From IMG/VR virus record IMGVR_UViG_3300037808_001064: a DNA stretch of 64,000 bases, one strand, 5' to 3'. Within the stretch, counting starts at the first letter, position 1. Each line of letters opens with the position of its first letter. Source of the DNA: an uncultured virus (IMG/VR IMGVR_UViG_3300037808_001064) (lineage: Duplodnaviria; Heunggongvirae; Uroviricota; Caudoviricetes). The notes beneath the pieces are model-generated. The model saw only the letters and a list, made by a program, of their open reading frames with translations. It searched no databases and was not told where the DNA came from. Shown piece after piece: positions 3,401 to 37,859 of the stretch. Both the position numbers and the translations under genes were made by a program.

Positions 3401-6400
3401 CTCAGACCCTTGAGCAGGTCATCACTTGCACGCATACGGCCCTTGTACCCATGAGCCAGCATCTCCCTGTTGACACGATTGATAGCCTCGGCCAGCTGGG
3501 GGTCTCGATAGAACTCGTTGACTCCGGCCGTGCCTCTCCTGTTGCCCAGGAGATGTGGCTGCCGATGGTCCTTGCTCCCAAGTCCAGACTGCAAGACCTG
3601 TGGCTCTCCACCGGTCAGCGACTTATCGCCTTCACCTCTGACAGCTTCGAATTCCTGGCCTACTACCTCAGACTGCCGACGACCCACATGGTGCTCTAGT
3701 TGAGCAGCTTTGTCTTTCCAATTGCCGATCTTCAGGCCGCGATCGATCAGCCCTTCAACGATGACCTCCTTGCTTCTCAGCTTTTCGGCCATCGCCTTCA
3801 GCTCAGGAGTGTTCAGGAGGTGGTAATCGAAGTCCTTGACGCCTTCAGCTGCAGCTCGAATCTCCTGATTGAGCATGAACTGGTCCTTGACCTTGCCGCC
3901 TACCAGGCCAGCATCGTCGAGCATGCGATCGAAGACTTCCTTCAGTGGTTCGCTGACTTCCTTCTCAAGCGGAGTGCCCACAATGTTGTCGTAGATTTCC
4001 TTTATCCAGTTCTTCAGCCTGTCGAAGACGTTTCGCAGTGCGGAGTTGCTGGCCTTGCCGTCACGCAGGTATCGCTCGAACCCGGCAGCGAAACCTTCCT
4101 CAGCTTCGACAGACCACTTGCCGCCGGATTCGACTCCGAACTCCTGCTCAGCTTTGCGCATGAGATCAGCCGGCAGCTTACGACGGAAGACGTGAGCTGA
4201 CTCGTGCATGAAGGTGGAGATGTCGGCAGACTTGAATGCGTGGATGATGGTCTCGGAGTTCTTGAACTCGACTGCACCGCGGCCTTTCTGACGGAGGATA
4301 TCTTTGATGGCGATGTCGGCACCGTCGAAGATGACGTAGTTGTAGTCGCGGGTGGGGGCCTTGAAAGCTCCTGACTCTATCGCCTCGATGGCCTTTTCGT
4401 ATCGCTCGACCATCGCTGGGCGAGGAGCATTCCCGGGCTCGCTTTCCAGAAAACTCATCAGAGGGTCGATGCCAGAATCTTCGCCGGCATCAAATCCCTT
4501 GTTTGTTTGCAGCCCCGTGTCTAATTCCTCATCCAGCTCCTTGCGAACCTCCCTTAACACATCGTCCAGGTTCGGCATTTCGTTGCCTTTAATGGCACGG
4601 TTATACCCAGACTGAACCCGCTGAATTACCCCACTGGACAGTTCACTCTCGTACTTCGAAAACGCCGCATCATCCACATATTGCATCTCATACGTGTGAG
4701 GGTTTCTCCCAAAGCCATCAGCGTATTTGATTCCGCGGATACCCTTGCCCAACAGCTCAAGGGAGGCGGCTTTCTTAGGGTCTCCTTCTTTCCCCATCTT
4801 ACGGCCGGGTTTAGATGAATGCTGAGATCGCATCTTTTCATACAGTTCGCTGCCTAGTTGTTCATCCACCTCCTTTGCGGTAAACCTAAGCGGCTTATCG
4901 CTTAATATCTTCCCTCCGACCTGGACCCCTTTACCACTCAGCTCCTCTCTAAGGCTGAAGTATTTTTCATCGAGCCGGGCCCAGCTGTCGCCGTCACCAT
5001 GAAGCTGCTTCCAGCGTTCGTAACCACCAGCGATTTCTTTACGAACATATTTAATTTCATCTTTAAGTCGCTCAATGTCCACCAAGTCCGACGCTGCCGG
5101 GGGCTTGTAACCGAACGCCTCCTTAACCACCTGTGGTTGCTTCGATAAAGGCAGATCCCAATGTAAATAATCATCATCAGTTGGGGCAAGATCCACGTTG
5201 TAGATGGGAGCTTTGCTTAGACTCACGTCTGAGTCTTTGAGTTTCCCGAGCCAATCCAACTCGCCCCTAAGCACGTCAATGCGATCTCTGGTGTCAGCCA
5301 GGTAGCCCGGTTCTGGCCCCGTTGTCCGCGGGTTTTCAGCTTTGAGGGCCGCGTATCTAGATTCATCCCTTGCCAAGCCGTGGGTGGCTTTGGCAAGCCA
5401 GCTCTTTTTTAATTCAATTTGCTGATCGACAGCACGCCTGATTGTGAAGTCATTAGTGGAGATGTCGTTAATGATGTCGTCGTACAGGTTCTTGTATTTC
5501 GCATCAGTTTCTTTGATGGACAAGCCGTTAATTTTGTATCTTCTTCTTGCAAATTGTCGCTGATACGATTCCGCCACTTTCATCGAGTCAGCAAAGTACA
5601 AGCCCCAGCCATAGACCTGTGCTCCTTCACCACCTCCAATGTTGTCCAGCGTGAACTCATCGAAATCATGCGGTGATGCGTGATGTGCCGGATGCCCCAA
5701 CAGCCCCTCTGGCAGGTCTTCAGGCAGGCTCGTCTTGACCGACATCCCTTTGAAGAACTCGTCGGCCGCCTTGTTGTTGTCCCTCGCCCACACCTTCGCG
5801 AACGCCTCCATGACAGGCATCGACTTACCAGCTTTGTCACCAAAGGAATCAACAGCTTCCTTGGAAAACCGGGCCATCTCACCATCTTCAGGGAACTCAA
5901 ACTGAGGCCCTTTCCTGAACTCACTCAGCTGCTTGATCACATTCGAATCGTGATCAAGGAGCGACTCCATCAGACCTTCCTCAATGTCTGAGAATGCCTC
6001 AGACGCCTCATCCCCGAGCCTGCCTCTCACATGATCGTGAGCCATCTGGAGAGCCTCGGACTTGTTGGCAGCACTCAGGCCATGCACGTTCCCATCCCAG
6101 TCCGTCCCTGGCTTAGCGGGGTCGGGAATCAGGTTTTGTTCTTTATCGTACAGCCTCCATTGTGCTTTAGATTTGCCTGCAACTTTCCCTGCCGGCCTGC
6201 CAATGTGGATCCCCATCTCCGTGTGGGTAAGAACTTCCTCAACGCCCTTAAAGTCTCCCAGCTCTTCCCAGCCAAGAGCACTCGCCACTCCTCTTCGATT
6301 GCCTGGTTTCGTGAGGAAGTCCTCAAACTCTGCACTGGGATCACGGACAGTTCCGCGTACCCCTTCTACGTGACCTGCCTTGATGTCCTCGAACCAGTTC

Positions 6401-7509
6401 TTGAGTGGAGTGAACGAAGCTGCCCCTGAATCTCTAAGGATCTCCTCGAACTGACCAGCGAACTCACCGATCTTTTCTGGCGAATAGTTCAGTCCAAGGA
6501 GTTTTTCTTTGATCGGTTCAAACAGAGTTGGCCCATTGGCCAGGGCTTCGGTGTACACGTTCTCAACTTGCTCGGTGCCAGCGGCCATCTTTTCGAAGAT
6601 GTCGTCGCCGTGCGCGAGCCCGAGCGAGTGATAAAGCTCTCTCTGCATGTTGTCAGCGTCGGCCAATGCGGCGTTCATCCCCATGTTTGTTTTGCCGAAC
6701 AATGTCCGCATCAGAGGCTGGTTCATTGCCTTTGATGTGCCGAGAACCGCAGCCTCAAACAAAGACTTCCTGACGAGGTTCATGCCGGTCAATGCGTCCC
6801 CGGCGACCTGACGTGCCAGTCCGAACGGCTCACCGATACCTTTGGTTTTCTCAAGAGCATCGGCAACGCCTGACATGGTCTTCGCCGTCCGCTGCATTCC
6901 TTTGCGGATGAGTCCTTCACCATCCTTCACTCGGGCACCAGTGCTCGACAGCTGCGATCGGAGGCCCCAGTATTCGCCCAGTTCGCTGAAATGGAATGGG
7001 TCAGTAATGTTGTTGATCAATCCTCGGCCGGCGGGAGCAGCCGCTTTGGCTCCACGAGTCGCATCGGCAGCCGCACCGATCGCCTTGAATGGACGTGACA
7101 GCATGTTCATCGGATCCAGAGCCACTTCAGCCATGAACCCGCCAACGTCTCTGACGCCTTCCATGGGATCGTCGATCCATCCGCCCATGCCCGTTTCTTT
7201 GTTGGCGTTCGTGAGACCCCACTGGGTGAGCATGTCACGGCCGGAGACGCGATCCTCCGCGGAGAATGGGCTGAGCAACTGATCGAACGGGTTGTTGCCG
7301 GTGAGCGTGTCCCTGAGCATCGAGCCGGGGATGTCGAGGAAGTTACCGACCGCTCCGACAGCACCAAGGACGGGCCCTGTGATGTCTGTCAGGAGAGAGC
7401 GTGGCTCTTCATCGTAGGCATATTCGCCCTGTGGATCGTTCCGGCTGAGGAGGGCAGTGGAACGAGCTGCTGGGGGGGAGAGGAGGGCTTGAATACGTGC
7501 GTTGGCCAT
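427..7509 (-). CDS. Large polyvalent / internal virion (ejection) protein, 2360 aa, with ADP-ribosyltransferase-like and zincin metallopeptidase-like segments
   Basis: HASPHDFDEFTLDNIGGGEGAQVYGWGLYFA ... NYVIFD resembles the polyvalent ART domain; ADISTFMHESAH is HExxH with a downstream EEGFA; sits at the end of the structural operon. Confidence 0.75.
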   Translation of the reverse strand: MANARIQALLSPPAARSTALLSRNDPQGEYAYDEEPRSLLTDITGPVLGAVGAVGNFLDIPGSMLRDTLTGNNPFDQLLSPFSAEDRVSGRDMLTQWGLTNANKETGMGGWIDDPMEGVRDVGGFMAEVALDPMNMLSRPFKAIGAAADATRGAKAAAPAGRGLINNITDPFHFSELGEYWGLRSQLSSTGARVKDGEGLIRKGMQRTAKTMSGVADALEKTKGIGEPFGLARQVAGDALTGMNLVRKSLFEAAVLGTSKAMNQPLMRTLFGKTNMGMNAALADADNMQRELYHSLGLAHGDDIFEKMAAGTEQVENVYTEALANGPTLFEPIKEKLLGLNYSPEKIGEFAGQFEEILRDSGAASFTPLKNWFEDIKAGHVEGVRGTVRDPSAEFEDFLTKPGNRRGVASALGWEELGDFKGVEEVLTHTEMGIHIGRPAGKVAGKSKAQWRLYDKEQNLIPDPAKPGTDWDGNVHGLSAANKSEALQMAHDHVRGRLGDEASEAFSDIEEGLMESLLDHDSNVIKQLSEFRKGPQFEFPEDGEMARFSKEAVDSFGDKAGKSMPVMEAFAKVWARDNNKAADEFFKGMSVKTSLPEDLPEGLLGHPAHHASPHDFDEFTLDNIGGGEGAQVYGWGLYFADSMKVAESYQRQFARRRYKINGLSIKETDAKYKNLYDDIINDISTNDFTIRRAVDQQIELKKSWLAKATHGLARDESRYAALKAENPRTTGPEPGYLADTRDRIDVLRGELDWLGKLKDSDVSLSKAPIYNVDLAPTDDDYLHWDLPLSKQPQVVKEAFGYKPPAASDLVDIERLKDEIKYVRKEIAGGYERWKQLHGDGDSWARLDEKYFSLREELSGKGVQVGGKILSDKPLRFTAKEVDEQLGSELYEKMRSQHSSKPGRKMGKEGDPKKAASLELLGKGIRGIKYADGFGRNPHTYEMQYVDDAAFSKYESELSSGVIQRVQSGYNRAIKGNEMPNLDDVLREVRKELDEELDTGLQTNKGFDAGEDSGIDPLMSFLESEPGNAPRPAMVERYEKAIEAIESGAFKAPTRDYNYVIFDGADIAIKDILRQKGRGAVEFKNSETIIHAFKSADISTFMHESAHVFRRKLPADLMRKAEQEFGVESGGKWSVEAEEGFAAGFERYLRDGKASNSALRNVFDRLKNWIKEIYDNIVGTPLEKEVSEPLKEVFDRMLDDAGLVGGKVKDQFMLNQEIRAAAEGVKDFDYHLLNTPELKAMAEKLRSKEVIVEGLIDRGLKIGNWKDKAAQLEHHVGRRQSEVVGQEFEAVRGEGDKSLTGGEPQVLQSGLGSKDHRQPHLLGNRRGTAGVNEFYRDPQLAEAINRVNREMLAHGYKGRMRASDDLLKGLRETLEAVDNPGGESLAKIFDDLVDAENRTVPMGELAGKLEKLADKIKGSGYRAVQKTDGEPAYKWATGGHQQSKHLFDNLLKPDPDPTKTGFMSEQLVRPKNADEDYIEALPKGYSVVSPEDARKIVKGYNRTTLFDRVKNGREQAMKAIDEAEEAGVGIAALRNAHGEVVEIVRPQLRSTVEVSLRSKANTLRSKVEKGYEVDLDSLKKLQHEQVAQYIRDFYNDTIVDKMPKYDEFGARLGRDFREDAEIQGAELKKDNAFFEKMKEEGKLTDDIKQAKTPGWHGVYEETESRIDKYIVPELLKADSPFSSYSKHGVFSNDPYLDYIDSRNNMNMAEAKLDVFEKFVMHFIKENRTYDQLKDPRAALDMNSIETLIDNQKTVLNENKFLENIAKQLHPEKLKGSGKEVPALLKAEVQRIKKIKINNADWVDFAGGMDLAKKTLFDLDGGASNALQFVDAMTRLFKVGVLAWPGRISRDFTSASYRAIESGMVDAGRPAHAMTSFKMANAVASGNFVDGFVDMLKKSGSYKYKEGGDKAGRYFVGSERHSMSLKDESYTEAEAAFDWWRGEFYYSQGGAYHHTSMDMANPLLDAEKAGTLDSLRESIPDFKGKGIFGHLRETAVESVKKSGVKAAANPINNYGVPHYLTVNPKLKNQVRSSTEFLPARIAEEAGGYTDAVTRSWATIDQMRRGETFGNSVSRAKDTLVDYDPRRFSKFEKDVMKRVFPFYSFLSSQIPYVMRELIRHPAGGLGMTIRAQRHAQDNKYVPFHMRDQAAIPGGMDDKGNQTYISSLGLMHEDAVAMLKPDLADIFGNMNPLLKAPVELATGRSLFMRGPTGGRELSELDPAVGRILKRAKEITGMADPDDRRPAPFIGLRTEHLLSNSPAARLLSTTRTLLDNRKTWWQKGVNLLLGPKYTTISPQQRHSMMQSEVDAIFKEMGVRPFTKYAMKKGEIEAIEESGDKATAFRLRASVKLRAIMDKAQKERNK

Positions 7510-24149: not shown

Positions 24150-24542
24150 TTACATAGCAGACCAGCTGCCATTCCTCCGGAGGTTCTTGTTCTGGATACC
24201 TGAGAACAACGATTCGTGAGGAACGCCGTACTTTCGCACAGTCTCCCCGCCAGTGAACGGGATGATAACAAGTTCCATCATTCCGTTGGGCGTAACGTCC
24301 GCATAGGCAACGGCGATCAGCGGAGCCCGGGTGTTGCCCTCGGGGTTGTACTTGATCATCTGCCCCCACTTGACCTGCACGGGGAATTCCCGAAGTGGTT
24401 GGAAGCGAACGTCATCCTCAACTGGAGGACTGATTATATCATCCACCTTGCCAAGGCCTGCATGAGAGGCACGGATTTCTTCGAGGGTTTTAGACACGAG
24501 CTGCTCCAAAATAACACGGTTGAGAATCAGGGGTCTGACCAT
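24150..24542 (-). CDS. Hypothetical protein, 130 aa
   Basis: ORF between TerL and portal. Confidence 0.55.
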   Translation of the reverse strand: MVRPLILNRVILEQLVSKTLEEIRASHAGLGKVDDIISPPVEDDVRFQPLREFPVQVKWGQMIKYNPEGNTRAPLIAVAYADVTPNGMMELVIIPFTGGETVRKYGVPHESLFSGIQNKNLRRNGSWSAM

Positions 24543-26217
24543 CAGACCCGAACATTTTCATCTCTTCCTCGAACGCAAGATCCGCTGCGGTTTGTGGTCG
24601 GACTTTCGACAAGGGAGTGACGTACGCTGGTCGCCTACTGACATAATACTCAAGACAAACCATCATGTCGATGACCTCGCCCGGAGCCGGGACTTCCCGC
24701 ATTTCGTCTGACACGATGTGCCGAACGGTCTCTTTCATCTGTTCCACGAGGTTCGGACACAGATGATTGATTATTCGTAATTGAGGCCGACCACACGGAC
24801 GGACCCTCATCATTTCTCTCAGAACCATTCCTCTTGCCACAGGGTCTGGATCACCAGGAAAAAACTGGCTACCAGGCAGCTGCCGACTCGACAGACCAAA
24901 TCTTTGGAACGCGCGAGTATAGTTCTGACCAATCGTCCCAGAGAACCCCATGGGGGTCTGCCGGGCGGCATTGCCATCGATGTAGAACCGCTCAAAATGG
25001 TATCCCCTCTCAGTCTCAAGTATTCCGCGAGCCATGTCGTCAGCTCCTAACCGGGGCTTGTAGATTTCCCGATACGGAATGATGTATGGCTCGTCATGAT
25101 CCCATAGATCCCGAGGAGGAATGGCACACATTAAGAGGCCCGGAGCAACAGTACCGGGGTCAAGAATGAGGTCTCTCGTCCAAGTGTCCGGTGGTATCCA
25201 GTTGTTTTCCGCAAGCACCTTCGACACTTTGTCCCACAAGCTCTCCTGCTCATAGTCGCAGCGATGGATGTCTTCGTTGTATTCCGCGTACAGCCTGATC
25301 AGATCTGTCGTGAACTCTCCTAAGTCTCGGGCACGACGTTCAGCTTCCGACCACCCCGAGAGGGTGTCTTCAACCTGTTTCTTGGTAAAGAATGGATTCG
25401 TTGACATGCGGAGGACTTCTTCCTTCGCAGTGACGTATTCTCTCTGCCCCTTGTCGACTTCCTTTTTCTCCTTAATGCACTGCTTGCTAAGTTGTCGCAG
25501 AGCATTATTTGAGTGGGCCGGCCAGGAGGACCAGAAGAGTCGGCCGTCCCGGTCAACAAGTCGAGCCTGCCACTCAGGATAATGAGCAGCAAATTTGATC
25601 TCTTCGTCAATCCAAATTTCATCAACGGGGTCTCCGGCCTTCACGGGGGCAGACGAGGCAAACGCATAGATCTCTGTTCCATTTTTGAGCCGACACATCG
25701 AAAACTGCCGCTCTGATTTTACTTCCCATGCCCATTCAGAAATCTCTGATGGCGGAATGAGTGGAGGTGACGGCTTGCGATCTTCCAGCGGGATATCGTG
25801 GTCTTCCGGATACTCGATCGGGTTGAATGCTCTCCACATCTTGGTCTTCGGATCCCGAACGATCTGGAACAGACCTGAGCGGAACAGCAGCCTGTGCATC
25901 GTCTGGCCAATGTGGTCAAGCGCAAGCCCCACGACCCAGCAGAGAAGCGGCCGGCCCTTCTGCCTGGCAGCCTGGCAGTGGATGACTTCACCGTCTGTCG
26001 AGCGAACCGGAATGCCCCGGACGATGGATGCAAATCGGACAGCTGCAGTTATGGACTTTCCCGAGCGGTTGCCTCCACGCAGCAGGAACTTCCTCACATC
26101 ACACTTGAGGATCTCGGCCTGAATTGGAGTTGCGCGGAACAATTCCAGCGCGTCCATCTTCCGCTTCTGGATCTCAACGGCCGCTCTCGCGATGCTGTCG
26201 ATGTTCAGCTTGGCCAT
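24490..26217 (-). CDS. terL: Terminase large subunit
   Basis: Walker A GGNRSGKS, Walker B IWIDEE, nuclease LDPG, C-terminal D.MVCLEY. Confidence 0.92.
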   Translation of the reverse strand: MAKLNIDSIARAAVEIQKRKMDALELFRATPIQAEILKCDVRKFLLRGGNRSGKSITAAVRFASIVRGIPVRSTDGEVIHCQAARQKGRPLLCWVVGLALDHIGQTMHRLLFRSGLFQIVRDPKTKMWRAFNPIEYPEDHDIPLEDRKPSPPLIPPSEISEWAWEVKSERQFSMCRLKNGTEIYAFASSAPVKAGDPVDEIWIDEEIKFAAHYPEWQARLVDRDGRLFWSSWPAHSNNALRQLSKQCIKEKKEVDKGQREYVTAKEEVLRMSTNPFFTKKQVEDTLSGWSEAERRARDLGEFTTDLIRLYAEYNEDIHRCDYEQESLWDKVSKVLAENNWIPPDTWTRDLILDPGTVAPGLLMCAIPPRDLWDHDEPYIIPYREIYKPRLGADDMARGILETERGYHFERFYIDGNAARQTPMGFSGTIGQNYTRAFQRFGLSSRQLPGSQFFPGDPDPVARGMVLREMMRVRPCGRPQLRIINHLCPNLVEQMKETVRHIVSDEMREVPAPGEVIDMMVCLEYYVSRRPAYVTPLSKVRPQTAADLAFEEEMKMFGSDGQTPDSQPCYFGAARV

Positions 26218-27745: not shown

Positions 27746-28900
27746 TTATGCGTAAGAAGCAATCTTCGCAAAGTACTTCGGCTGGAAGCGGTAGTTGCCC
27801 CAGGCTGAAGCGTACAGCAGATAAGCGGCGTCAGTCAGCGTCCACTGAGGACCGTACACCTTGTACAGGTCGCTGTGAATGTTGAACATCTCCATGTACT
27901 GAGGACACAACACAACACACTCGTCCGTACCACCCAGAGAGTAGTCAGGACAGAGGTACGCTCCGTCAATGTTCAGAGAACCGCCGGGGATGCCGAGGTC
28001 ATTCTGATGAGAGACAGGAACGATCTGACGGTTGCGATCGCGGAAACTGTTCTTGGCTTTCATGAACAGGTTCGGGTCACACATGACCAGCATTGGAGCA
28101 CTCTCGCCATTCATGAAACCAGTACGGTTTGGCATGACGACGGTCAGGAAGGCAATGATGAGTTCGATGTTGTCTTCGAACTTAGCACTGTTGGTTCCCC
28201 ATGCCGTTGAACTCCAGTTCGCAAGAACCGGACTCATGGCGTCGTACTCTGAGGAGCCTGTTCCCCATGGATATGCGTTACCCAGAGCGGCGTTGTAGAT
28301 CTCGCCAGCACTCGGAGCAGCGTCCCATGTCCCGCCAAAGTTGGCAAGGTCTGTGTTGTGACCAGCGTACGCAACGCCCGGCACAGCACAGCGGTCACCA
28401 GCAACAACGGCACCGCCGTCATCACCAAGAATTGTCCCAATGCCTTGATAGTCATTGGTGTTCCCGGCCGCATTCGCGTCCACGTAGAACCGTTCCGCGA
28501 TCAGCTTGTCAAACGAATCTTTCACGTCCTTCGTCAGTCGCTGATAGCGATTAACAATGGCCCGCGGACCCATGTTCGACAACCATTCCAGCTCGGTCAT
28601 CTTGTCCGTGGCCCGGTAGCCACGACGGTCGACGGTGAGCTGTTCGTCGGTAACCGTCGAGTTGAACTCGATCCGGGCACCGTCTGTCGCTGTCTGAACG
28701 GGTGGTTCACGCAGCTTCACGTTCCACGTCAACGAATACTCATTGGCATTGAACTCAATGAGGCCGTATTGACGTAGAATTTTCAACATCTTGTGATTTC
28801 GCATGGTGAGATCACTCTCACCTTTGAAATACTTCGGTGCCGTATCAATTACGATACGGACCTGATCATCAACATCTGTAGGAGCTGCTGGAGTTGGCAT
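27746..28900 (-). CDS. Major capsid protein
   Basis: 384 aa after a scaffold-like gene; YQGIGT and YAG motifs, HK97-like layout. Confidence 0.8.
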   Translation of the reverse strand: MPTPAAPTDVDDQVRIVIDTAPKYFKGESDLTMRNHKMLKILRQYGLIEFNANEYSLTWNVKLREPPVQTATDGARIEFNSTVTDEQLTVDRRGYRATDKMTELEWLSNMGPRAIVNRYQRLTKDVKDSFDKLIAERFYVDANAAGNTNDYQGIGTILGDDGGAVVAGDRCAVPGVAYAGHNTDLANFGGTWDAAPSAGEIYNAALGNAYPWGTGSSEYDAMSPVLANWSSTAWGTNSAKFEDNIELIIAFLTVVMPNRTGFMNGESAPMLVMCDPNLFMKAKNSFRDRNRQIVPVSHQNDLGIPGGSLNIDGAYLCPDYSLGGTDECVVLCPQYMEMFNIHSDLYKVYGPQWTLTDAAYLLYASAWGNYRFQPKYFAKIASYA

Positions 28901-30056: not shown

Positions 30057-30311
30057 ATGGATACCAGCATCAGTGACAGTGAATTGTCGATAAGCGAGTT
30101 AGCTTTGTACGTCAAAAAAAGGCACAAAAAAACCGTCCGAGAACAGACCCTTTACAAGTGGATCTATCGCGGACGGCAGAATGAGCACGGCGAAGTGCGA
30201 TATCTAAGGTCTTCTCAGATGGGGTTCAGTGCCCCTCATTTTGTTCGGAAAGGTGAGATCAACGAATTCATACTTTGGCTAACTGGGGACGAACGGGACG
30301 AACGGCGGTGA
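30057..30311 (+). CDS. DUF1580-like winged-helix protein (excisionase / RDF-like)
   Basis: QTLYKWIYRG...GEVRYLRS..MG...V...EINEF pattern; convergent with the recombinase. Confidence 0.6.
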   Translation: MDTSISDSELSISELALYVKKRHKKTVREQTLYKWIYRGRQNEHGEVRYLRSSQMGFSAPHFVRKGEINEFILWLTGDERDERR

Positions 30312-31815
30312 CGATTGCCGTTTCACGATCCTCCTCCTCGACCAGCTTCAAATATGACTGATAGTCATCCCAGTGACGGGACATGTGGATCATGAACAGA
30401 TAGCGGTAGGTGGGATTGACGAGCTTCTTTTTTGCCCTTGCTTCTCGACACCGGTCCCTGAACCCTTCTTGCCCTTTGCGAGTGTATAGGGAGTTTGGAT
30501 GTTCCAGGAGGTCCGAGTTCCTTTTCATGGCTAAGAGGGGATCCCACCCGGACTTTGACATTGGAAGCCGATGTTCACGGTGTGCGCAGATGGCTTCCAT
30601 CCTCTCAAAAACCTTCACGCGTGACGGCTCCACCTTCATGTGCTCGTTGACCAACCGGCAATCCTCCAGATAATCAAGGTCCGGAACGATGTGCCGCTCA
30701 GGCTCGCCCTTCTCGTTGTTCAGTATTTTAGAGTGAATCCACTTTGGCAAATGGCGGTCAGCTTTGGGAACCAGCCCGGAATCCCACATCCACGCCAGAG
30801 TGTCGCGGACTCGACGGCGATTCTCTTCGGACTCGATCTGAGCCATCAGGACCATGATCTGCATGGAAAGACGGAATGACATGTCACCGGACTTCATCCC
30901 ACCTTCAGCCAGATGAACAATGATCCCACTATCGTGCAGGTAGTCAACGACTTCAATCATGTCTTTCACGGACCTGAACGCTCTTGCCGGCCGCAGGAAG
31001 ACAATGTGGTCGCCCCTCTTCAGCTTCTTCAGGAGCTGAGACGCTTCCGGCCTCTTGCTGAACTGGACCTTCAGTGCTGAGACTCCTTCGTCCCGAATCA
31101 TTCCACCCGGTGACGCCATGTCGGAGTACAGCCTTTCCATGTACCGATAAACAGGGCCCAGCTGCGACTCAACACTCTGCCGATCGGTTGATACCCGAAC
31201 GTACCCATAAACCTTCCCGGCCGGCAGTGGCTCTTCTTCTTTCTTCTCCGGACGAACCATGGAAGAGATGACTCGATTTGATGCGGTACTGGCCAGGGTG
31301 TTATTCAGCTTGGGTGCCCTCTTCCCGTCCGTGTCGTCCATCAGGCCGTCTTCTCTGGCAACCTGATACTCTCGCATCCGCTCACCGACGATCTCGGACT
31401 TCCACTGAGCGTAGGCAGCCATCACATGTGCCGTGAGCTTCCCGTTGGCAGTCGTGAGATCCAAAGAAGGATGCGACACAAACTTCAGGCTGATGCCGGC
31501 ACCGGTCCAGAACTCAATGTACTGCGCACACTGCCAGAGGTTTCTCCACCCGCGGTCGATCGCGTACATGATGACCGTGTCTCCGGGATTAACATGACGA
31601 ATCAGCTCCCGGCCACCAGCTCGCTGCTCAATGGGAATCTTGTAGGCCGACGCAGAGTCAACGAACACTCCGGGCTCATCGACGTTCGTTTCAGTGCCCA
31701 GATCCAGGCCTTCTCGTTTGACAAGATCCAGACAGAGTTCAGCTTGTGCTGACAGAGAACATCCATCAGACCTCTGCTTGCCGGTCGAAACTCGGCAGTA
31801 AATGTAAGTCGTCAT
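30268..31815 (-). CDS. Serine recombinase with two tandem resolvase catalytic domains
   Basis: YCRVSTGKQ...DRGWR and YVRVSTDRQ...RAFR, each followed by a long E-helix. Confidence 0.85.
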   Translation of the reverse strand: MTTYIYCRVSTGKQRSDGCSLSAQAELCLDLVKREGLDLGTETNVDEPGVFVDSASAYKIPIEQRAGGRELIRHVNPGDTVIMYAIDRGWRNLWQCAQYIEFWTGAGISLKFVSHPSLDLTTANGKLTAHVMAAYAQWKSEIVGERMREYQVAREDGLMDDTDGKRAPKLNNTLASTASNRVISSMVRPEKKEEEPLPAGKVYGYVRVSTDRQSVESQLGPVYRYMERLYSDMASPGGMIRDEGVSALKVQFSKRPEASQLLKKLKRGDHIVFLRPARAFRSVKDMIEVVDYLHDSGIIVHLAEGGMKSGDMSFRLSMQIMVLMAQIESEENRRRVRDTLAWMWDSGLVPKADRHLPKWIHSKILNNEKGEPERHIVPDLDYLEDCRLVNEHMKVEPSRVKVFERMEAICAHREHRLPMSKSGWDPLLAMKRNSDLLEHPNSLYTRKGQEGFRDRCREARAKKKLVNPTYRYLFMIHMSRHWDDYQSYLKLVEEEDRETAIVTAVRPVRPQLAKV

Positions 31816-33470: not shown

Positions 33471-33613
33471 AAAAACGCCCCGGACGGTCATCTCTACAAG
33501 ATCACAAAAAGAGACGATCAGGCCACTGCTTGGGCAGGAGCAACTCAGCTTCAAGGTTACACGCCCATCAACTGAGTCGCTCCCGTAAGGAGGCAGCACC
33601 AACCGTCCGGGGC
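33471..33613 (-). ncRNA. Candidate structured RNA (multi-stem, possible pseudoknot) ending in a U-tract
   Basis: 12-bp closing helix 33477-33488/33602-33613; 14-bp inner helix 33537-33550/33570-33583 with G-U pairs only on minus. Confidence 0.55.
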
Positions 33614-33649
33614 TGGCGACGAACAAGCTCTCTATCTCAACATGTCTTC

Positions 33650-33808
33650 GACCGCCACGCCTAGCCTAGCGAGTGACTGCCATGACCAACCTAGCCCCGC
33701 CCCGCCTTAACGCACCCGGCCGTGCCTCGACCGCCCAGACCTGCCATGCCTGACCGATCCTTACCGCACCATGCCCACCGAGACCGCCATGCCGTGACCG
33801 ATTATCTG
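33650..33808 (-). repeat. Short (GGY-NN)n pentamer array, 3-4 units delimited by GGCRGTC
   Basis: Plus-strand GACYGCC at 33650, 33675, 33729, 33782 separated by NN-RCC pentamers. Confidence 0.85.
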
Positions 33809-34615
33809 CTATCCGGCAAGCGGCTTGCTAGAGTCAACCAACTTGTCGGCAAGCAACTGAGCCTTGCCGCGTTTCTTCACTTCAGCCTGAAACCATCCGA
33901 GCAGTTCCTCAGTGTCGGCATCAACACACTCAGGGTTCTTGATGGCTGCGTCCTGCTGTTTCATGCCACCACTGTCAATGATGCCCTGACACTCTTCTTT
34001 GGTCGACACCTCGAACTGGCCGAAGTTGCCCTTGCCTTTCTCTTGCCGGAAATCACCGACACCAACGATGATTCCGCCATTTGAAAGCAGCTGATAGATG
34101 GACTGCTCGCTCATCTGCGGCATCACATACTGGATTGTGACAGGGATGCACCATTCCAGAAGCATTGCCCTCGTTCGCACATCCGGCGTTCTCTTCATGT
34201 CAGCCGAACGAACGATCGACATGAATACCTTCGGCACGCCATACAAATCACAAGAGTAACCCTGCACCCAAACAAGACGCCCAATCTGCGTTTTGTTTGT
34301 CCCCTTCGTTTCGAGAGCTGCCGTCATCATCGCTCCCTTCACGGCCGGCGAAGGCATTGTTAATCGCGTGGGGCCCTTGTCAGGCCGACGATCCATCGAG
34401 TTCCGGTACTCGTTCATCGGATCGTGCTTTAACGTCTGCTGACGTTCTGCCGAACTCTTCGCCCCTTTCGGGAAAAGCAACTCGTGAACCCCTTTCGCCG
34501 CCATACGATTGCGAATCAAAGGAGTCCGACCTTTGAGCCAGACAGTAATACTGCCAACTCGCAACGGTTCAACTTCAATCGCTTCCAAAACACCCTTCGC
34601 TTTCGCTTTAGCCAT
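33809..34615 (-). CDS. Stand-alone Cas7/RAMP-like protein, 268 aa
   Basis: LKGRTPLI first strand, MPSPAVKGAM helix (compare IPGSSLKGAL), RTRA...EW, C-terminal G-rich loop GVGDFRQEKGKGNFGQF. Confidence 0.7.
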   Translation of the reverse strand: MAKAKAKGVLEAIEVEPLRVGSITVWLKGRTPLIRNRMAAKGVHELLFPKGAKSSAERQQTLKHDPMNEYRNSMDRRPDKGPTRLTMPSPAVKGAMMTAALETKGTNKTQIGRLVWVQGYSCDLYGVPKVFMSIVRSADMKRTPDVRTRAMLLEWCIPVTIQYVMPQMSEQSIYQLLSNGGIIVGVGDFRQEKGKGNFGQFEVSTKEECQGIIDSGGMKQQDAAIKNPECVDADTEELLGWFQAEVKKRGKAQLLADKLVDSSKPLAG

Positions 34616-34704
34616 TACAGCTTCTCCTAAAATTGTGGGACTAAGTCCCTACTACGTGAAGGAGACACGGGAAACATTCCCGCATCAAAAAACTTGCTTC
34701 CATT

Positions 34705-34890
34705 TTAGCTGCCTTGATCAACGAGAGTTAAGTTGAACAGATCAGCCAGTTGATCAATCCTCTCCGATGACATTCCCGTTGACGTAGTCATGAACCGATG
34801 CAACGTCGTCTTTGGTATCCCAGACTCAACTGCCACTGAATTTAACGTGTACTGCTTGACGTGTTTCTTCAGAGTGTCTGTGATTGTCAT
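34705..34890 (-). CDS. Cro/XRE-like HTH regulator, 61 aa
   Basis: TLNSVAVESGIPKTTLHRF...IDQLADLF; AGGAG SD. Confidence 0.75.
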   Translation of the reverse strand: MTITDTLKKHVKQYTLNSVAVESGIPKTTLHRFMTTSTGMSSERIDQLADLFNLTLVDQGS

Positions 34891-35096
34891 GAGACAACTC
34901 CTGTGCGATCCCCATGGAAGGGCAGTAGCCGGAACATTTTGTCGCGTTTCTCAAGCCCCTGAATTCGTCCCGCTTCCTGATCGAACGCCGACCAAAACAC
35001 TGCAGAAAAGTTCATTCGATCTCGGTACTCGTCGACATCTGAAACCCGACATTCAGGGACGTAGATGCCAATCTTCGGTACTGACTTTTTGCTCAT
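34887..35096 (-). CDS. Small protein, 69 aa, possibly ribbon-helix-helix
   Basis: KIGIYVPE strand followed by NFSAVF..A helix; AAGGGG SD at the array end. Confidence 0.5.
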   Translation of the reverse strand: MSKKSVPKIGIYVPECRVSDVDEYRDRMNFSAVFWSAFDQEAGRIQGLEKRDKMFRLLPFHGDRTGVVS

Positions 35097-35100
35097 TAAA

Positions 35101-35748
35101 ATCCCCTTCCATGCCCGACCATTCCATGCCTCGCCTGTCCCAGCCTATCCATGACCGCCTTGACCACACCGCAACATGACTCACCAGACCTTGACCGGAC
35201 GCACCAAACCTGGACCGCCAAGCCTGACCTCGACTCACCGTACCTAACCGTACCTGACCATAACTTCCATGACCGCCTTGACCGACCTAGCCTATCCGAA
35301 CATTGCCTTCCCGTACCTCAACCGCCATGCCCACCGAGACCGACCCTGCCACACCTGGCCAGACCAACCGAGACCGCCAGTCCTTACCTCGCCATACCTG
35401 ACCCGAACTCGCCCTGCCCACCGAGACCGCCGAACCTGACCGTGCCATAACCAGCCATTCCACACCACACCATGACCGCCTAGCCCGACCCCGCCTCACC
35501 GGACCGCGCCGCACCTCGCCTAACCGCTTCTCACCAGGACCGCCTTGACCGACCAAGCACTGCCTAACCCTGCATTTCCAGACCAAGCCGTGACCGCCTT
35601 GACCGACCTCACCACGCCTTACCTGGACGCACCGGACCTTGACCGCCTCACCTAGACCCGCCGCCCCGTGCCTGCCCAGGACACGCCGTGCCCCGACCGC
35701 CCAGCCCGACCAATCCTAGCCTGCCCGAACCTTGCCTTCCGCGACCAA
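35101..35748 (-). repeat. Main (GGY-NN)n pentamer array, about 12 units of 49-64 nt, each ending GGCGGTC; putative guide-RNA array
   Basis: Plus-strand GACCGCC at 35153, 35213, 35271, 35320 (AACCGCC), 35372, 35425, 35474, 35538, 35592, 35641, 35695, with 8-11 NN-RCC pentamers between. Confidence 0.9.
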
Positions 35749-36201
35749 TTATTCCAGCATCGACTCAAGTGACTCTTTCACCTGTTTCAGCTTCCGCACA
35801 ACATCACTGCCAACAATGCCGGCCTTCGACACCGCTATGCCATAAACCCGACACGCATTCCCGTGCAACATCTGAAGCTCCCGCTGCATCACTGCCGACG
35901 TTTTTGCAACCCCACGCATCTTCGGAAGCGACACAAACACTGGCTCGTCATCCGTCGAGGACACGTAACGCACAACGGAACTCGTCACTTCCTCGACAAT
36001 CACCTCGAACTTGCACTTGCGAATGATCGACCGAGCCTGATCTCGCCATCGCTCGGCCGCAGCTGCATGCACATCCCAGGTGAAATCGCCATGACATGGA
36101 TGTCGATCGTCCCTCGCCGCCTCAATCAAATCTTCAGGGTCGACTCTGCCGTCAGACTCCAGCGACCTCACGGCCGCCTCCTTCTCAGTCCATGTCGCCA
36201 T
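35749..36201 (-). CDS. Conserved-looking phage protein, 150 aa, first gene of the RAMP/array operon
   Basis: GGAGG SD with ATG 36201; PEDLIEAAR...HPCH..FTWD...AA...R.QAR.IIR; stop abuts the array. Confidence 0.7.
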   Translation of the reverse strand: MATWTEKEAAVRSLESDGRVDPEDLIEAARDDRHPCHGDFTWDVHAAAAERWRDQARSIIRKCKFEVIVEEVTSSVVRYVSSTDDEPVFVSLPKMRGVAKTSAVMQRELQMLHGNACRVYGIAVSKAGIVGSDVVRKLKQVKESLESMLE

Positions 36202-36330
36202 ATCAGCCTCCAAGTGAAAAATCATTCCTCTGCACCACAATAGACACTCAGGCAAAGTTTGTCCATGGTCATTTTCTGACTATACCAGAAATAAGTGAAC
36301 TCACCGCAACTCACCGCGTCCAAATGGAGC

Positions 36331-36405
36331 TGGGATGTAGCTCAGATTGGCCAGAGTGCTCGGCTTGGACCCGAGAAGTCGCAGGTTCGAATCCTGTCAT
36401 CCCGA
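36331..36405 (+). tRNA. tRNA-Pro(TGG), CCA not encoded
   Basis: Full cloverleaf: TGGGATG/CATCCCG acceptor, CTCGG-CTTGGAC-CCGAG anticodon arm, GCAGG-TTCGAAT-CCTGT T arm, A73. Confidence 0.92.
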
Positions 36406-37532: not shown

Positions 37533-37859
37533 TCACAACTTCACCGCCCAATAAGCAGCCTCAGCCTCAACGAACGGATTGGCACGACGCCAGTTCCCAA
37601 CATGCCCCAGCAACAAATGACAATTTATGCCGAACCGTTTCGCCTCGCACAACGGGAGCAAATTCGATACATCCAACTCCAAATCCGGGGCCAGATGAAA
37701 CGGAATAATGTGATGAGCCACCAACGACTTCCGACCACCACAAGACGCACACCGCTTCCCCTTCAGGAATTCATCACGCACCCGTCGCCACTTACCGGAA
37801 CGACGAGCCCCAGGAGGAGCCTTGCCAGATATTCGCTCTGTTAAATCACGCCAACGCAT
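37533..37859 (-). CDS. HNH endonuclease
   Basis: CASC...HHIIP...NLLPLC...CH. Confidence 0.85.
   Translation of the reverse strand: MRWRDLTERISGKAPPGARRSGKWRRVRDEFLKGKRCASCGGRKSLVAHHIIPFHLAPDLELDVSNLLPLCEAKRFGINCHLLLGHVGNWRRANPFVEAEAAYWAVKL

What the first reader, a model, noticed from the sequence alone, without database searches (positions are those of the whole stretch)
35101..35748. Main array: fixed trinucleotide, variable dinucleotide code in units of 9+5n nt
Seen: spacing between GGCGGTC boundaries is 60, 58, 49, 52, 53, 49, 64, 54, 49, 54 nt, mostly 9+5n with occasional 1-nt indels. Example plus-strand unit at 35474: gaccgcc ta-gcc cg-acc cc-gcc tc-acc gg-acc gc-gcc gc-acc tc-gcc ta-acc gc-ttc tc-acc ag. 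Minus-strand NN strings: 35474 CT GA GC TA GA GC GC CC GA GG CG TA; 35592 AA CC GC CA AA GT GA CG AA; 35641 GG AC GT CT CA AC GC GG TA GA; 35425 AT GT GT AT TG AT AC CA TC; 35271 GA AC AA AA TC TA TA CG AA; 35538 AC TT CT AA AG TA AG TT CG AA. No two units are alike, unlike a slippage microsatellite. Inference: each unit carries 18-24 nt of target information. A 2-on/1-off register would skip codon wobble positions.
Basis: partly seen in the sequence, partly recalled or inferred. Interest (0 to 1): 0.9.

Follow-up and report, generated by a model that had tools for sequence, protein, structure and literature searches.

The report
Phage VIPR guide-RNA array (GGY/NN code)
This repeat tract is the guide-RNA array of a VIPR system, a recently described phage RNA-guided gene-silencing system, found here in a marine phage whose closest relatives lie in Planctomycetota genomes, so it is a new example of a known kind.

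Summary
Window 35101-35748 is a non-coding tract whose minus strand reads NN-GGY pentamers punctuated by GGCGGTC.

It is a VIPR locus (bioRxiv 10.64898/2026.04.26.720920). The 268-aa gene at 33809-34615(-) is a Vipr/RAMP homologue. Its profile hits PDB 36pp "SUSP1 Vipr protein" at E 4e-4, with the GGY-contacting thumb Arg and G-loop Asp-aromatic-Arg conserved, and Foldseek returns CRISPR Cas7/Csm3-type complexes.

The same gene-plus-array pairing recurs in at least 16 viral contigs, and 19 of 25 genome loci show such runs. GGY is conserved and NN carries almost no information.

Under the published rule (NN read, one base skipped), guide 35474-35537 matches 24 of 24 read bases in two diverged metagenome copies of an HTH_17 excisionase-family gene. 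Skipped bases fall on codon position 3. About 0.02 such matches are expected by chance.

Not found in the text I read: there is no long 3' tail, and guides abut, separated by one 4-nt repeat (GGC-R-GKC). That gives unit lengths of 5n+4.

The parts
35749..36255 (-). Candidate vap (vipr-accessory) gene, 168 aa, directly upstream of the main array
   Evidence: phrog_15946, E 7e-12. Homologues lie beside vipr or the arrays in L031 (57% id), L129 (53%), L050, L055, L150, L130 and L148, and more remotely in alignment A2. No Pfam, NCBIfam or PDB assignment. The AF2 model is poor (pLDDT 47), so its role is inferred from conserved neighbourhood only.
35101..35748 (-). Main vrRNA array: 11 delimited units plus a terminal undelimited run. 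Each unit is NN(GGY NN)n ending in GGCGGTC.
   Evidence: It is intergenic and on the same strand as vipr and the vap-like gene.
35695..35748 (-). Unit 1 (first after the vap stop codon); its 5' pentamers are degenerate
35641..35694 (-). Unit A, 54 nt, 10 NN (GG AC GT CT CA AC GC GG TA GA)
   Evidence: No exact NNx match in viral contigs.
35592..35640 (-). Unit B, 49 nt, 9 NN
35538..35591 (-). Unit C, 54 nt, 10 NN
35474..35537 (-). Unit D, 64 nt, 12 NN (CT GA GC TA GA GC GC CC GA GG CG TA); the only guide with a predicted natural target
   Evidence: 24 of 24 read bases match under the 1-nt skip rule in L189 and L162. The match covers codons 31-42 of an HTH_17 gene, with the skip base at codon position 3.
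35425..35473 (-). Unit E, 49 nt, 9 NN
35372..35424 (-). Unit F, 53 nt (one base short of 5n+4)
35320..35371 (-). Unit G, 52 nt, degenerate motifs, ends in the variant delimiter GGCGGTT
35271..35319 (-). Unit H, 49 nt, 9 NN
35153..35270 (-). Units I (58 nt) and J (60 nt), each off the 5n+4 rule by one base
35101..35152 (-). Terminal GGY/NN run without a delimiter, running into the ribosome-binding site of the 69-aa ORF
34887..35096 (-). 69-aa ORF between the array and vipr; no family and no homologue in the related loci
34705..34890 (-). 61-aa ORF with weak Cro/C1-type HTH hits, below Pfam cut-offs; no homologue in the related loci
33809..34615 (-). vipr: 268-aa RAMP homologue, the protein that would bind the GGY motifs
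   Evidence: phrog_4652, E 4e-13. Profile A1 hits PDB 36pp_D 'SUSP1 Vipr protein', E 4.3e-4, with R149, D188, F189 and R190 aligned to R138, D177, W178 and R179. Foldseek hits are CRISPR Csm/Cas7-type complexes. Homologues at 38-46% identity sit beside arrays in 11 viral loci, and at 74-75% identity in two Planctomycetota MAGs.
33650..33808 (-). Downstream mini-array: three GGCGGTC delimiters with units of 53 and 79 nt, starting just after the vipr stop codon

Best explanation
The tract is the main guide-RNA (vrRNA) array of a VIPR system (Viral Interference Programmable Repeat) carried by a marine tailed phage. The closest Vipr relatives lie in Planctomycetota genomes.

Inferred mechanism, by homology with the characterised E. 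coli phage SUSP1 system:
- The minus strand is transcribed, probably together with the vap-like gene, the two small ORFs and vipr.
- Vipr protomers polymerise on the RNA, one per pentamer. They flip out and hold each GGY and present each NN.
- The presented dinucleotides pair with double-stranded target DNA, reading two bases and skipping one.
- The filament then silences transcription of a competing mobile element.

Each unit between delimiters is one guide of 9-12 NN, that is 18-24 read bases. Guide D is predicted to silence an excisionase-family HTH_17 gene of another mobile element.

Shown here: the array anatomy, the Vipr homology, the conserved synteny and strand, the conservation pattern (GGY conserved, NN free), unit turnover between relatives, absence of self-targets, and one codon-phased perfect target.

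Inferred, not shown: transcription, processing at the delimiter, RNP formation, silencing, and the role of the 168-aa neighbour as vap.
For: Vipr homologue next to the array:
- Profile of 12 family members hits PDB 36pp_D 'SUSP1 Vipr protein' at E 4.3e-4. It was the only PDB sequence at E<=10.
- In that alignment the residues the structure paper names as GGY contacts (thumb R138; G-loop D177, W178, R179; read) align with R149 and D188-F189-R190.
- R149, D188 and R190 are invariant, and F189 nearly invariant, in the 12-sequence family alignment.
- AF2 model pLDDT 68. The listed top ~50 Foldseek PDB hits were all CRISPR effector complexes with Cas7-family RAMP subunits (Csm, type VII, Cas7-11, Cascade), prob up to 0.98.

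Recurrence:
- A scan for three delimiters found arrays of the same build in 16 viral loci and 3 more.
- The vipr family is adjacent in 12 of them.
- In 25 genome loci found with the Vipr profile, GGYNN x4 runs lie on the vipr strand in 19 and on the other strand in 1.

Conservation:
- Over 166 boundary contexts the first G carries 1.1-1.8 bits and NN carries 0.00-0.13 bits.
- All 16 dinucleotides occur at NN, 21-60 each of 646.

Units behave as cassettes:
- Close relatives share 3 of 8, 2, 2 and 1 units. The window shares 0 with L128 and L129.
- In shared units NN differs at 5/124 positions against 11/165 for GGY.

Target:
- 84 exact hits to a 9-NN core of guide D in metagenome contigs.
- The 6 remaining read bases match 6/6 in 2 hits and 4/6 or fewer in the other 82. 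The expected number of 6/6 matches is 84/4096 = 0.02.
- Both hits lie in phase 0 in an HTH_17 gene (PF12728, E 2e-18 and 2e-7).
- The two genes are 72% identical in protein. They differ at 6 of 11 skipped bases and at 0 of 24 read bases. The site lies in the longest run (21 codons) of identity at codon positions 1-2.

Other:
- No self-target in the window at skip 0-2.
- The tract folds no better than shuffles.
Against: - The sequence link to a characterised Vipr is local (52 residues) and modest (E 4e-4). Foldseek TM-scores are low (0.24-0.34 normalised to the query), and only 1 hit has E<=0.001.
- Only 1 window guide has a predicted target. Its two hits are homologous, so they count as one event. 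After about four guide searches the chance level is a few percent, not negligible.
- Blank searches: exact scans of two other guides, and of guide D's inner 10 NN, in viral contigs; guide D at up to 3 mismatches in 401 genomes of the order of G002; and cross-searches of 68 guides against all fetched loci, which showed no excess over shuffles (9 hits against 12.3).
- The target element's nature and host are unknown. No relative was found in viral contigs, in 201 genomes, or in the window and fetched loci.
- Four of the 10 spacings in the window break the 5n+4 rule, and several pentamers are degenerate (GTC, GAA, TGC), so some units may be decayed.
- The ~40-nt 3' tail with pseudoknot of the characterised type II vrRNAs is absent.
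Confidence: 0.92

Rival explanations
1. A DNA-level protein-binding array, such as a partition centromere, iteron origin or operator, bound by a small DNA-binding protein encoded beside it (for example the 69-aa or 61-aa ORF).
For: It is a long array of short phased motifs directly upstream of small ORFs, one of them weakly HTH-like. This was my first working idea, and in several relatives a gene starts just after the array.
Against: - The small ORFs have no homologues at the other arrays. The gene that always accompanies the arrays is the RAMP/Vipr homologue.
- The arrays are strictly strand-specific with respect to vipr (19 loci against 1), as expected for an RNA rather than a duplex site.
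- No ParA, ParM or Rep family was found in the window.
- A perfect NNx target exists for one unit.
Confidence: 0.03
2. Real vrRNAs that act mainly as decoys or redirectors of a competitor's Vipr, or a largely decayed array, rather than as this phage's own working guides.
For: The third VIPR preprint reports satellites and phages carrying vrRNAs that redirect or target other VIPR systems (abstract and passages). In the window 4 of 10 spacings are off-rule and unit G is degenerate. Most guides have no target found.
Against: An intact vipr with conserved RNA-contact residues lies in the same operon-like block. In shared units of relatives, NN is at least as conserved as GGY. Guide D matches an excisionase-family gene in codon phase, the kind of target reported for working guides.
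Confidence: 0.04
3. A neutral pentanucleotide minisatellite or a composition artefact with no function.
For: It is a period-5 repeat with frequent indels and has no Rfam family.
Against: - The same build recurs beside the same gene family in viral contigs and in genomes of several phyla.
- Information content alternates sharply, with GGY conserved and NN free, unlike slippage products.
- Unit lengths are quantised at 5n+4 under three different delimiters.
- The sequence was identical in pieces recovered from four further seawater metagenome runs.
Confidence: 0.01

Closest known systems
VIPR type II systems of Escherichia phage SUSP1 and a Pseudomonas fulva prophage (bioRxiv 10.64898/2026.04.26.720920; structures in 10.64898/2026.04.26.720927, PDB 36pp)
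   Same: - Phage-borne and minimal: a vipr RAMP gene, one conserved accessory neighbour, and flanking intergenic arrays both upstream and downstream of the genes.
- The RNA is made of GGY/NN pentamers with hypervariable NN, 9-12 repeats per guide here against 9-16 there.
- The GGY-contact residues are conserved.
- No self-targets.
- A predicted target lies in a mobile-element excision or regulatory gene, with skipped bases on wobble positions.
   Different: - No ~40-nt conserved 3' tail or pseudoknot. Guides abut and are separated only by GGCGGTC.
- 11 and 3 delimited units here, against four ~100-nt vrRNAs there.
- Vipr is 268 aa against 202 aa, with only local sequence similarity.
- The accessory gene has no detectable similarity to anything named.
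- The host lineage is probably Planctomycetota, in seawater.
- None of the biochemistry was tested here.
'Staggered vrRNA arrays' mentioned in the same preprint (fig. S18; I could read only the legend)
   Same: [quoted passage not shown] That fits a boundary made of one 4-nt repeat, which shifts the pentamer register by one.
   Different: I could not see the figure, the type assignment or the supplementary data tables. I therefore cannot say whether this clade or its delimiter is the one shown. The text says only the ribozyme-interspersed and single-vrRNA architectures were confirmed by sRNA-seq. 'GGCGG' does not occur in the text.
Class 1 CRISPR-Cas effector backbones (Cas7/Csm3 RAMPs) and CRISPR arrays
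   Same: The predicted fold matches RAMP subunits. One protomer binds per RNA repeat and flips out bases periodically (paper). The array holds many different guides, and whole units turn over between relatives.
   Different: There is no repeat-spacer structure, and no cas1/cas2 or other cas genes in the window. The guide is non-contiguous (2 read, 3 held in the RNA; 2 read, 1 skipped in the DNA). No acquisition mechanism is known.
TRAP-type ring proteins binding (G/U)AG triplets spaced by 2-3 nt (recalled, not from a call)
   Same: A fixed triplet and a variable 2-nt spacer in RNA.
   Different: No TRAP-like gene is present. The number of triplets per unit varies from 7 to 14 in the family, which does not fit a ring of fixed size. 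The associated protein is a RAMP homologue.

Membership tests
VIPR system | A Vipr protein (minimal RAMP: RRM core, G-loop, thumb) encoded at the locus | tested here: met
   Family profile hits PDB 36pp_D 'SUSP1 Vipr protein', E 4.3e-4, over thumb to G-loop. R138, D177, W178 and R179 correspond to R149, D188, F189 and R190; R149, D188 and R190 are invariant and F189 nearly invariant in 12 sequences. Foldseek hits are CRISPR RAMP-containing complexes. The strength is modest: local alignment and low TM-scores.
VIPR system | Intergenic tandem YNNGG (GGY/NN) repeats, at least 4 units, flanking vipr on the same strand | tested here: met
   Arrays at 35101-35748 and 33650-33808, both on the minus strand like vipr. 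The same holds in 19 of 25 genome loci, against 1 of 25 on the other strand.
VIPR system | GGY conserved, NN hypervariable | tested here: met
   Logo over 166 contexts: first G 1.1-1.8 bits, NN 0.00-0.13 bits. All 16 dinucleotides are used. No units are shared with 74-75% identical relatives.
VIPR system | Natural targets obey the 1-nt skip (NNx) rule, typically in coding sequence with the skip base at the wobble position | tested here: met
   Guide D matches 24/24 read bases in two homologous HTH_17 genes in phase 0, against an expected 0.02. This holds for one guide only. Other searches were blank. The 0, 2 and 3-base skip rules could not be compared on the large collections.
VIPR system | No self-targeting by its own guides | tested here: met
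   Best scores in the 64-kb window for 9 guides at skip 0-2 equal those of shuffled guides.
VIPR system | A vap accessory gene beside vipr | tested here: inconclusive
   A conserved 160-170-aa neighbour family is present. It has no recognisable DNA-binding or nuclease domain, and the AF2 model is too poor to search.
VIPR system | Carried mainly by viruses or proviruses | tested here: met
   The window encodes a large terminase (phrog_2), a capsid-like protein (NF033394, below cut-off), an HNH endonuclease and a serine recombinase. Relatives lie in IMG/VR contigs.
VIPR system | vrRNAs are expressed, processed and bound by Vipr | not testable with these tools
   No run on record as RNA holds the stretch.
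VIPR type II (SUSP1 clade) | Each vrRNA ends in an invariable ~40-nt 3' tail with a pseudoknot | tested here: not met
   Units abut, and only the 7-nt delimiter is conserved. Positions next to it carry 0.02-0.31 bits. The tract has no excess structure. The locus is therefore not filed under type II. Its type (I-VII) could not be assigned because the figures and data tables were not readable.

The most novel reading that the evidence does not exclude
In this Vipr clade, guide boundaries are written by a register shift alone. A single 4-nt repeat (GGC+R) followed by G[GT]C, which is GGCGGTC here and GGCAGGC or GGCAGTC in sister clades, breaks the 5-nt phase.

On this reading the Vipr filament or a nuclease ends one guide and starts the next without any structured tail or ribozyme. 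That would allow very dense arrays (up to 38 guides in 2.5 kb in L055) whose units turn over as cassettes, as CRISPR spacers do.

If true, phasing by the protein filament itself would be the measuring and processing device. It would be a simpler solution than the repeat handles of CRISPR or the pseudoknot tails of type II VIPR.
Probability: 0.35. Interest if true: 0.6.

Novelty: new member of a known kind. Interest (0 to 1): 0.45.

Why it matters
VIPR was described only in 2026 preprints, and it was characterised in enterobacterial and Pseudomonas phages.

This locus extends it to a marine phage whose closest Vipr relatives sit in Planctomycetota genomes. It also shows, from sequence alone, a compact tail-less array. 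In that array unit length is quantised as 5n+4 by a one-base-short repeat. The preprint text says this "staggered" class was not confirmed experimentally.

The locus offers a concrete, testable guide-target pair: guide D against an excisionase-family HTH_17 gene, with skipped bases on wobble positions. That matches the published idea that VIPR immobilises rival mobile elements at positions they cannot mutate silently.

For the scan itself, a reader without tools re-derived the published code from raw sequence. The finding is correct but not new.

Tried and rejected
Ideas dropped once the neighbouring gene proved to be a Vipr homologue:
- RHH/ParG/omega-type centromere or operator.
- Chi-like protective array.
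- T7-type primase recognition sites (GGTC).
- TRAP-like ring-protein RNA.
- Two-tier G-quadruplex.

Database and motif searches with nothing useful:
- Rfam: only a tRNA at 36331-36405(+) and a sub-threshold snoRNA match.
- Promoter and terminator scan: nothing above shuffles that explains the array.
- Literature search for the 7-mer returned only primer lists.
- Earlier findings of this scan: none by place or by sequence.
- No whole genome is held for the window.

Target searches that were blank:
- 68 in-register guides from all arrays against the window plus all loci then held: 9 hits at >=90% for skip 1, against 12.3 for shuffles.
- Guide D inner 10 NN, guide A, and a 10-NN stretch of the mini-array guide in viral contigs: 0 hits each.
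- Guide D at up to 3 mismatches in G001 and G002 and in 401 genomes of the order of G002: 0 hits. The tool's reversed control pattern gave scattered single hits that I did not tally.
- Other window guides on the two target contigs: shuffle level.
- Relatives of the target protein: none in viral contigs with one sequence or with the 2-row alignment, none in 201 genomes at E<=1e-12, none in the window or loci.

RNA evidence: no RNA holder is listed.

Population variation: contigs of four further seawater runs lie on 33600-36300 without any difference or indel, at low depth and with gaps in cover. No array variation could be read from them.

vap fold: the AF2 model has pLDDT 47 and was not searched.

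Typing: assignment to types I-VII was not possible. The figures are not held, and the supplementary PDF gave legends only. The data tables S1-S4 were not available and may already list this clade.

Full report
**What is there.**
- Window 35101-35748 lies between two minus-strand genes: 35749-36255 (168 aa) and 34887-35096 (69 aa).
- The + strand is C-rich (301 C of 648).
- Read on the minus strand, the tract is a chain of pentamers, GGY followed by two free bases. It is cut into units by GGCGGTC.
A skip-3 search recovered each at its own place.
- Six of the 10 spacings fit 9+5n. Three miss by one base and one by two.
- GGCGGTC occurs 25 times in the window against 9.5 +/- 2.8 in shuffles, and none of 100 shuffles reach 25. 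Thirteen of the 25 lie in this array and in a second small array at 33650-33808, all on the minus strand.
- Runs of four or more G[GT]Y-NN pentamers occur on the minus strand only, essentially only in these two places.
- The tract has no long ORF, no Rfam family and no more RNA structure than shuffles (z -0.47).

**Surroundings.** The window is phage-like.
- Large terminase at 24490-26217, HNH endonuclease at 37533-37859, serine recombinase at 30268-31815, and a weak capsid match at 27746-28900.
- No genome is held for the window.

**Recurrence.**
- A periodicity screen picked out 16 loci with the same build (two of them, L118 and L125, are the same sequence). Three more turned up later.
- Unit lengths in these loci are 34, 39, 44, 49, 54, 59, 64, 69. 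One array (L055) has 38 units over 2.5 kb.
- In 11 of these loci a full-length homologue (38-46% identity) of the window's 268-aa protein (33809-34615, minus strand) lies directly beside the array, and a partial copy in a twelfth.
- In most loci the array begins right after that gene's stop codon, as the window's mini-array does.

**Identification.**
- A profile of the 12 family members hits one PDB sequence only: 36pp_D, "SUSP1 Vipr protein", E 4.3e-4.
- That name led to three 2026 preprints on VIPR systems (listing).
- What I read of each:
  - 10.64898/2026.04.26.720920: Results, Methods sections 18, 20, 26 and 27, passages, and legends from its supplementary PDF.
  - 10.64898/2026.04.26.720927: abstract and sections 5-6.
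  - 10.64898/2026.10.15.759431: abstract and passages.
- What they report:
  - Phage-borne loci consist of a minimal RAMP protein (Vipr), an accessory gene (vap) and intergenic vrRNAs made of GGY/NN repeats.
  - Vipr protomers bind one repeat each, hold GGY and present NN.
  - NN pairs with DNA while every third target base is skipped.
  - Natural targets are rival mobile elements, often with the skipped base on the codon wobble position.
- The PDB alignment covers thumb to G-loop. It places the window protein's R149 and D188-F189-R190 on R138 and D177-W178-R179, the residues the structure paper names as contacts to the two guanines and the pyrimidine. R149, D188 and R190 are invariant and F189 nearly invariant in the family.
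- An AF2 model (pLDDT 68, pTM 0.64) gives Foldseek PDB hits that were all CRISPR effector complexes with Cas7-family subunits among the top ~50 listed. These hits are weak: 1 at E<=0.001 and TM 0.24-0.34. That library predates the Vipr structures.

**Wider family.**
- The profile finds 25 loci in species-representative genomes.
- The closest are a Planctomycetaceae MAG (75% identity) and a Thermoguttaceae MAG (74%). The rest (41-51% over full-length matches) are mostly Alphaproteobacteria, plus Binatia, Myxococcota and others.
- GGYNN runs lie on the vipr strand in 19 of 25 loci and on the other strand in 1 of 25.
- The two Planctomycetota loci have arrays both upstream and downstream of vipr. 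L129 also has a homologue (53%) of the window's 168-aa gene between arrays, the same layout as the window.
- That 168-aa family is the best vap candidate. It has no recognisable domain, and its model was too poor to use.

**Conservation pattern.**
- Across 166 boundary contexts the first G of each pentamer carries 1.1-1.8 bits, the second and third positions 0.3-0.9 bits, and the NN positions 0.00-0.13 bits.
- Only the base after the delimiter shows a slight purine bias (0.31 bits).
- All 16 dinucleotides are used at NN.
- Close relatives share only some units: L002/L004 share 3 of 8, and three other pairs share 2, 2 and 1. The window shares none with L128 or L129.
- Inside shared units NN is no more changed than GGY (5/124 against 11/165).
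- NN therefore behaves as content kept with the unit, not as neutral spacer.

**Delimiter.**
- Nothing beyond the 7-mer is conserved, so the ~40-nt tail of the characterised type II vrRNAs is absent.
- In sister clades the delimiter is GGCAGGC (3 loci) or GGCAGTC (2 loci) instead of GGCGGTC (11 loci).
- In all of them the spacing is 4 mod 5, for example 10 of 10 in L128, 5 of 5 in L131 and 6 of 6 in L132.
- The common reading is one 4-nt repeat (GGC plus a purine) followed by a normal G[GT]C pentamer. That shifts the register by one and explains 9+5n.
- This fits the preprint's legend for "staggered arrays" (1-nt overlapping vrRNAs). The text says that class was not confirmed by sRNA-seq.
- I could not see that figure. 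The string GGCGG is not in the text.

**Targets.**
- Applying the published rule, the window's guides have no self-target.
- A 9-NN core of guide D (35474-35537) has 84 exact hits in the metagenome collection.
- The six remaining read bases match 0-4 times in 82 of the hits, close to binomial expectation. They match 6 of 6 in two hits, L189 and L162, where 0.02 is expected.
- Both sites lie in frame, with the skipped base at codon position 3, at codons 31-42 of a 79-codon HTH_17 gene (PF12728; excisionase-family DNA-binding domain by my knowledge of that family).
- The two genes are 72% identical in protein, 82% at codon positions 1-2 and 46% at position 3.
- They differ at 6 of the 11 skipped bases and at none of the 24 read bases. 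The site sits in the longest stretch (21 codons) identical at positions 1-2.
- This parallels the published targeting of a satellite's excision recombinase at wobble-aligned sites.
- The two hits are homologous and so count as one event. With the other guide searches I made, the chance level is a few percent.
- All other target searches were blank. The element carrying the target could not be placed.

**Expression and population.**
- No RNA run holds the stretch.
- Pieces from four further seawater metagenome runs are identical to the window where they cover it.

**Verdict.**
- The thing is a VIPR locus, already described in print, so it is a new member of a known kind.
- Three points go beyond the text I could read: the delimiter rule, the clade's spread, and one predicted guide-target pair.

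Noticed in passing
window 36331-36405 (+): A tRNA gene (Rfam 60.7 bits) on the strand opposite to the surrounding phage genes, just upstream of the vap-like gene.
   Followed up: no
window 427-7509 (-): A 2360-aa ORF with a sub-threshold ART-PolyVal hit and a phrog_9880 match. It looks like a phage 'polyvalent' giant protein.
   Followed up: no
window 30268-31815 (-): A 515-aa protein with two separate resolvase N-terminal domain stretches (residues about 3-150 and 192-343), which is unusual for a serine recombinase.
   Followed up: no
L055 3001-5509: A viral contig with 38 delimited units in about 2.5 kb, the largest array seen. Here vipr and the vap-like gene are adjacent and the array follows both.
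   Followed up: partly
L131, L132, L139, L140, L144 (genome loci): Sister clades use GGCAGGC or GGCAGTC instead of GGCGGTC as the unit delimiter, with the same 4-mod-5 spacing.
   Followed up: partly
window 33809-33830 (-), and L061/L108/L071 between vipr and the array: A short GC-rich hairpin lies between the vipr stop codon and the first downstream unit (GCAAGC...GCTTGC in the window). L128 and L129 share two conserved hairpin-like stretches just upstream of vipr.
   Followed up: no
window 35538-35560, 35592-35610, 35271-35290, 35153-35170: Four units end in the same 17 bases (GGTCGGTCAAGGCGGTC on the minus strand). This may mark recent duplication of unit ends or a preferred 3' end. The family-wide logo shows no such conservation.
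   Followed up: partly
L189 886-1302 and L162 711-1141: The predicted target gene is preceded by a second HTH_17-like reading frame, fused in L189 and separate in L162. The target element therefore carries tandem excisionase-family domains.
   Followed up: partly
(401 genomes): Guide D's pattern gave 0 hits at up to 3 mismatches, while the tool's reversed control pattern gave scattered single hits. This is unexplained, and may reflect codon or composition asymmetry.
   Followed up: no
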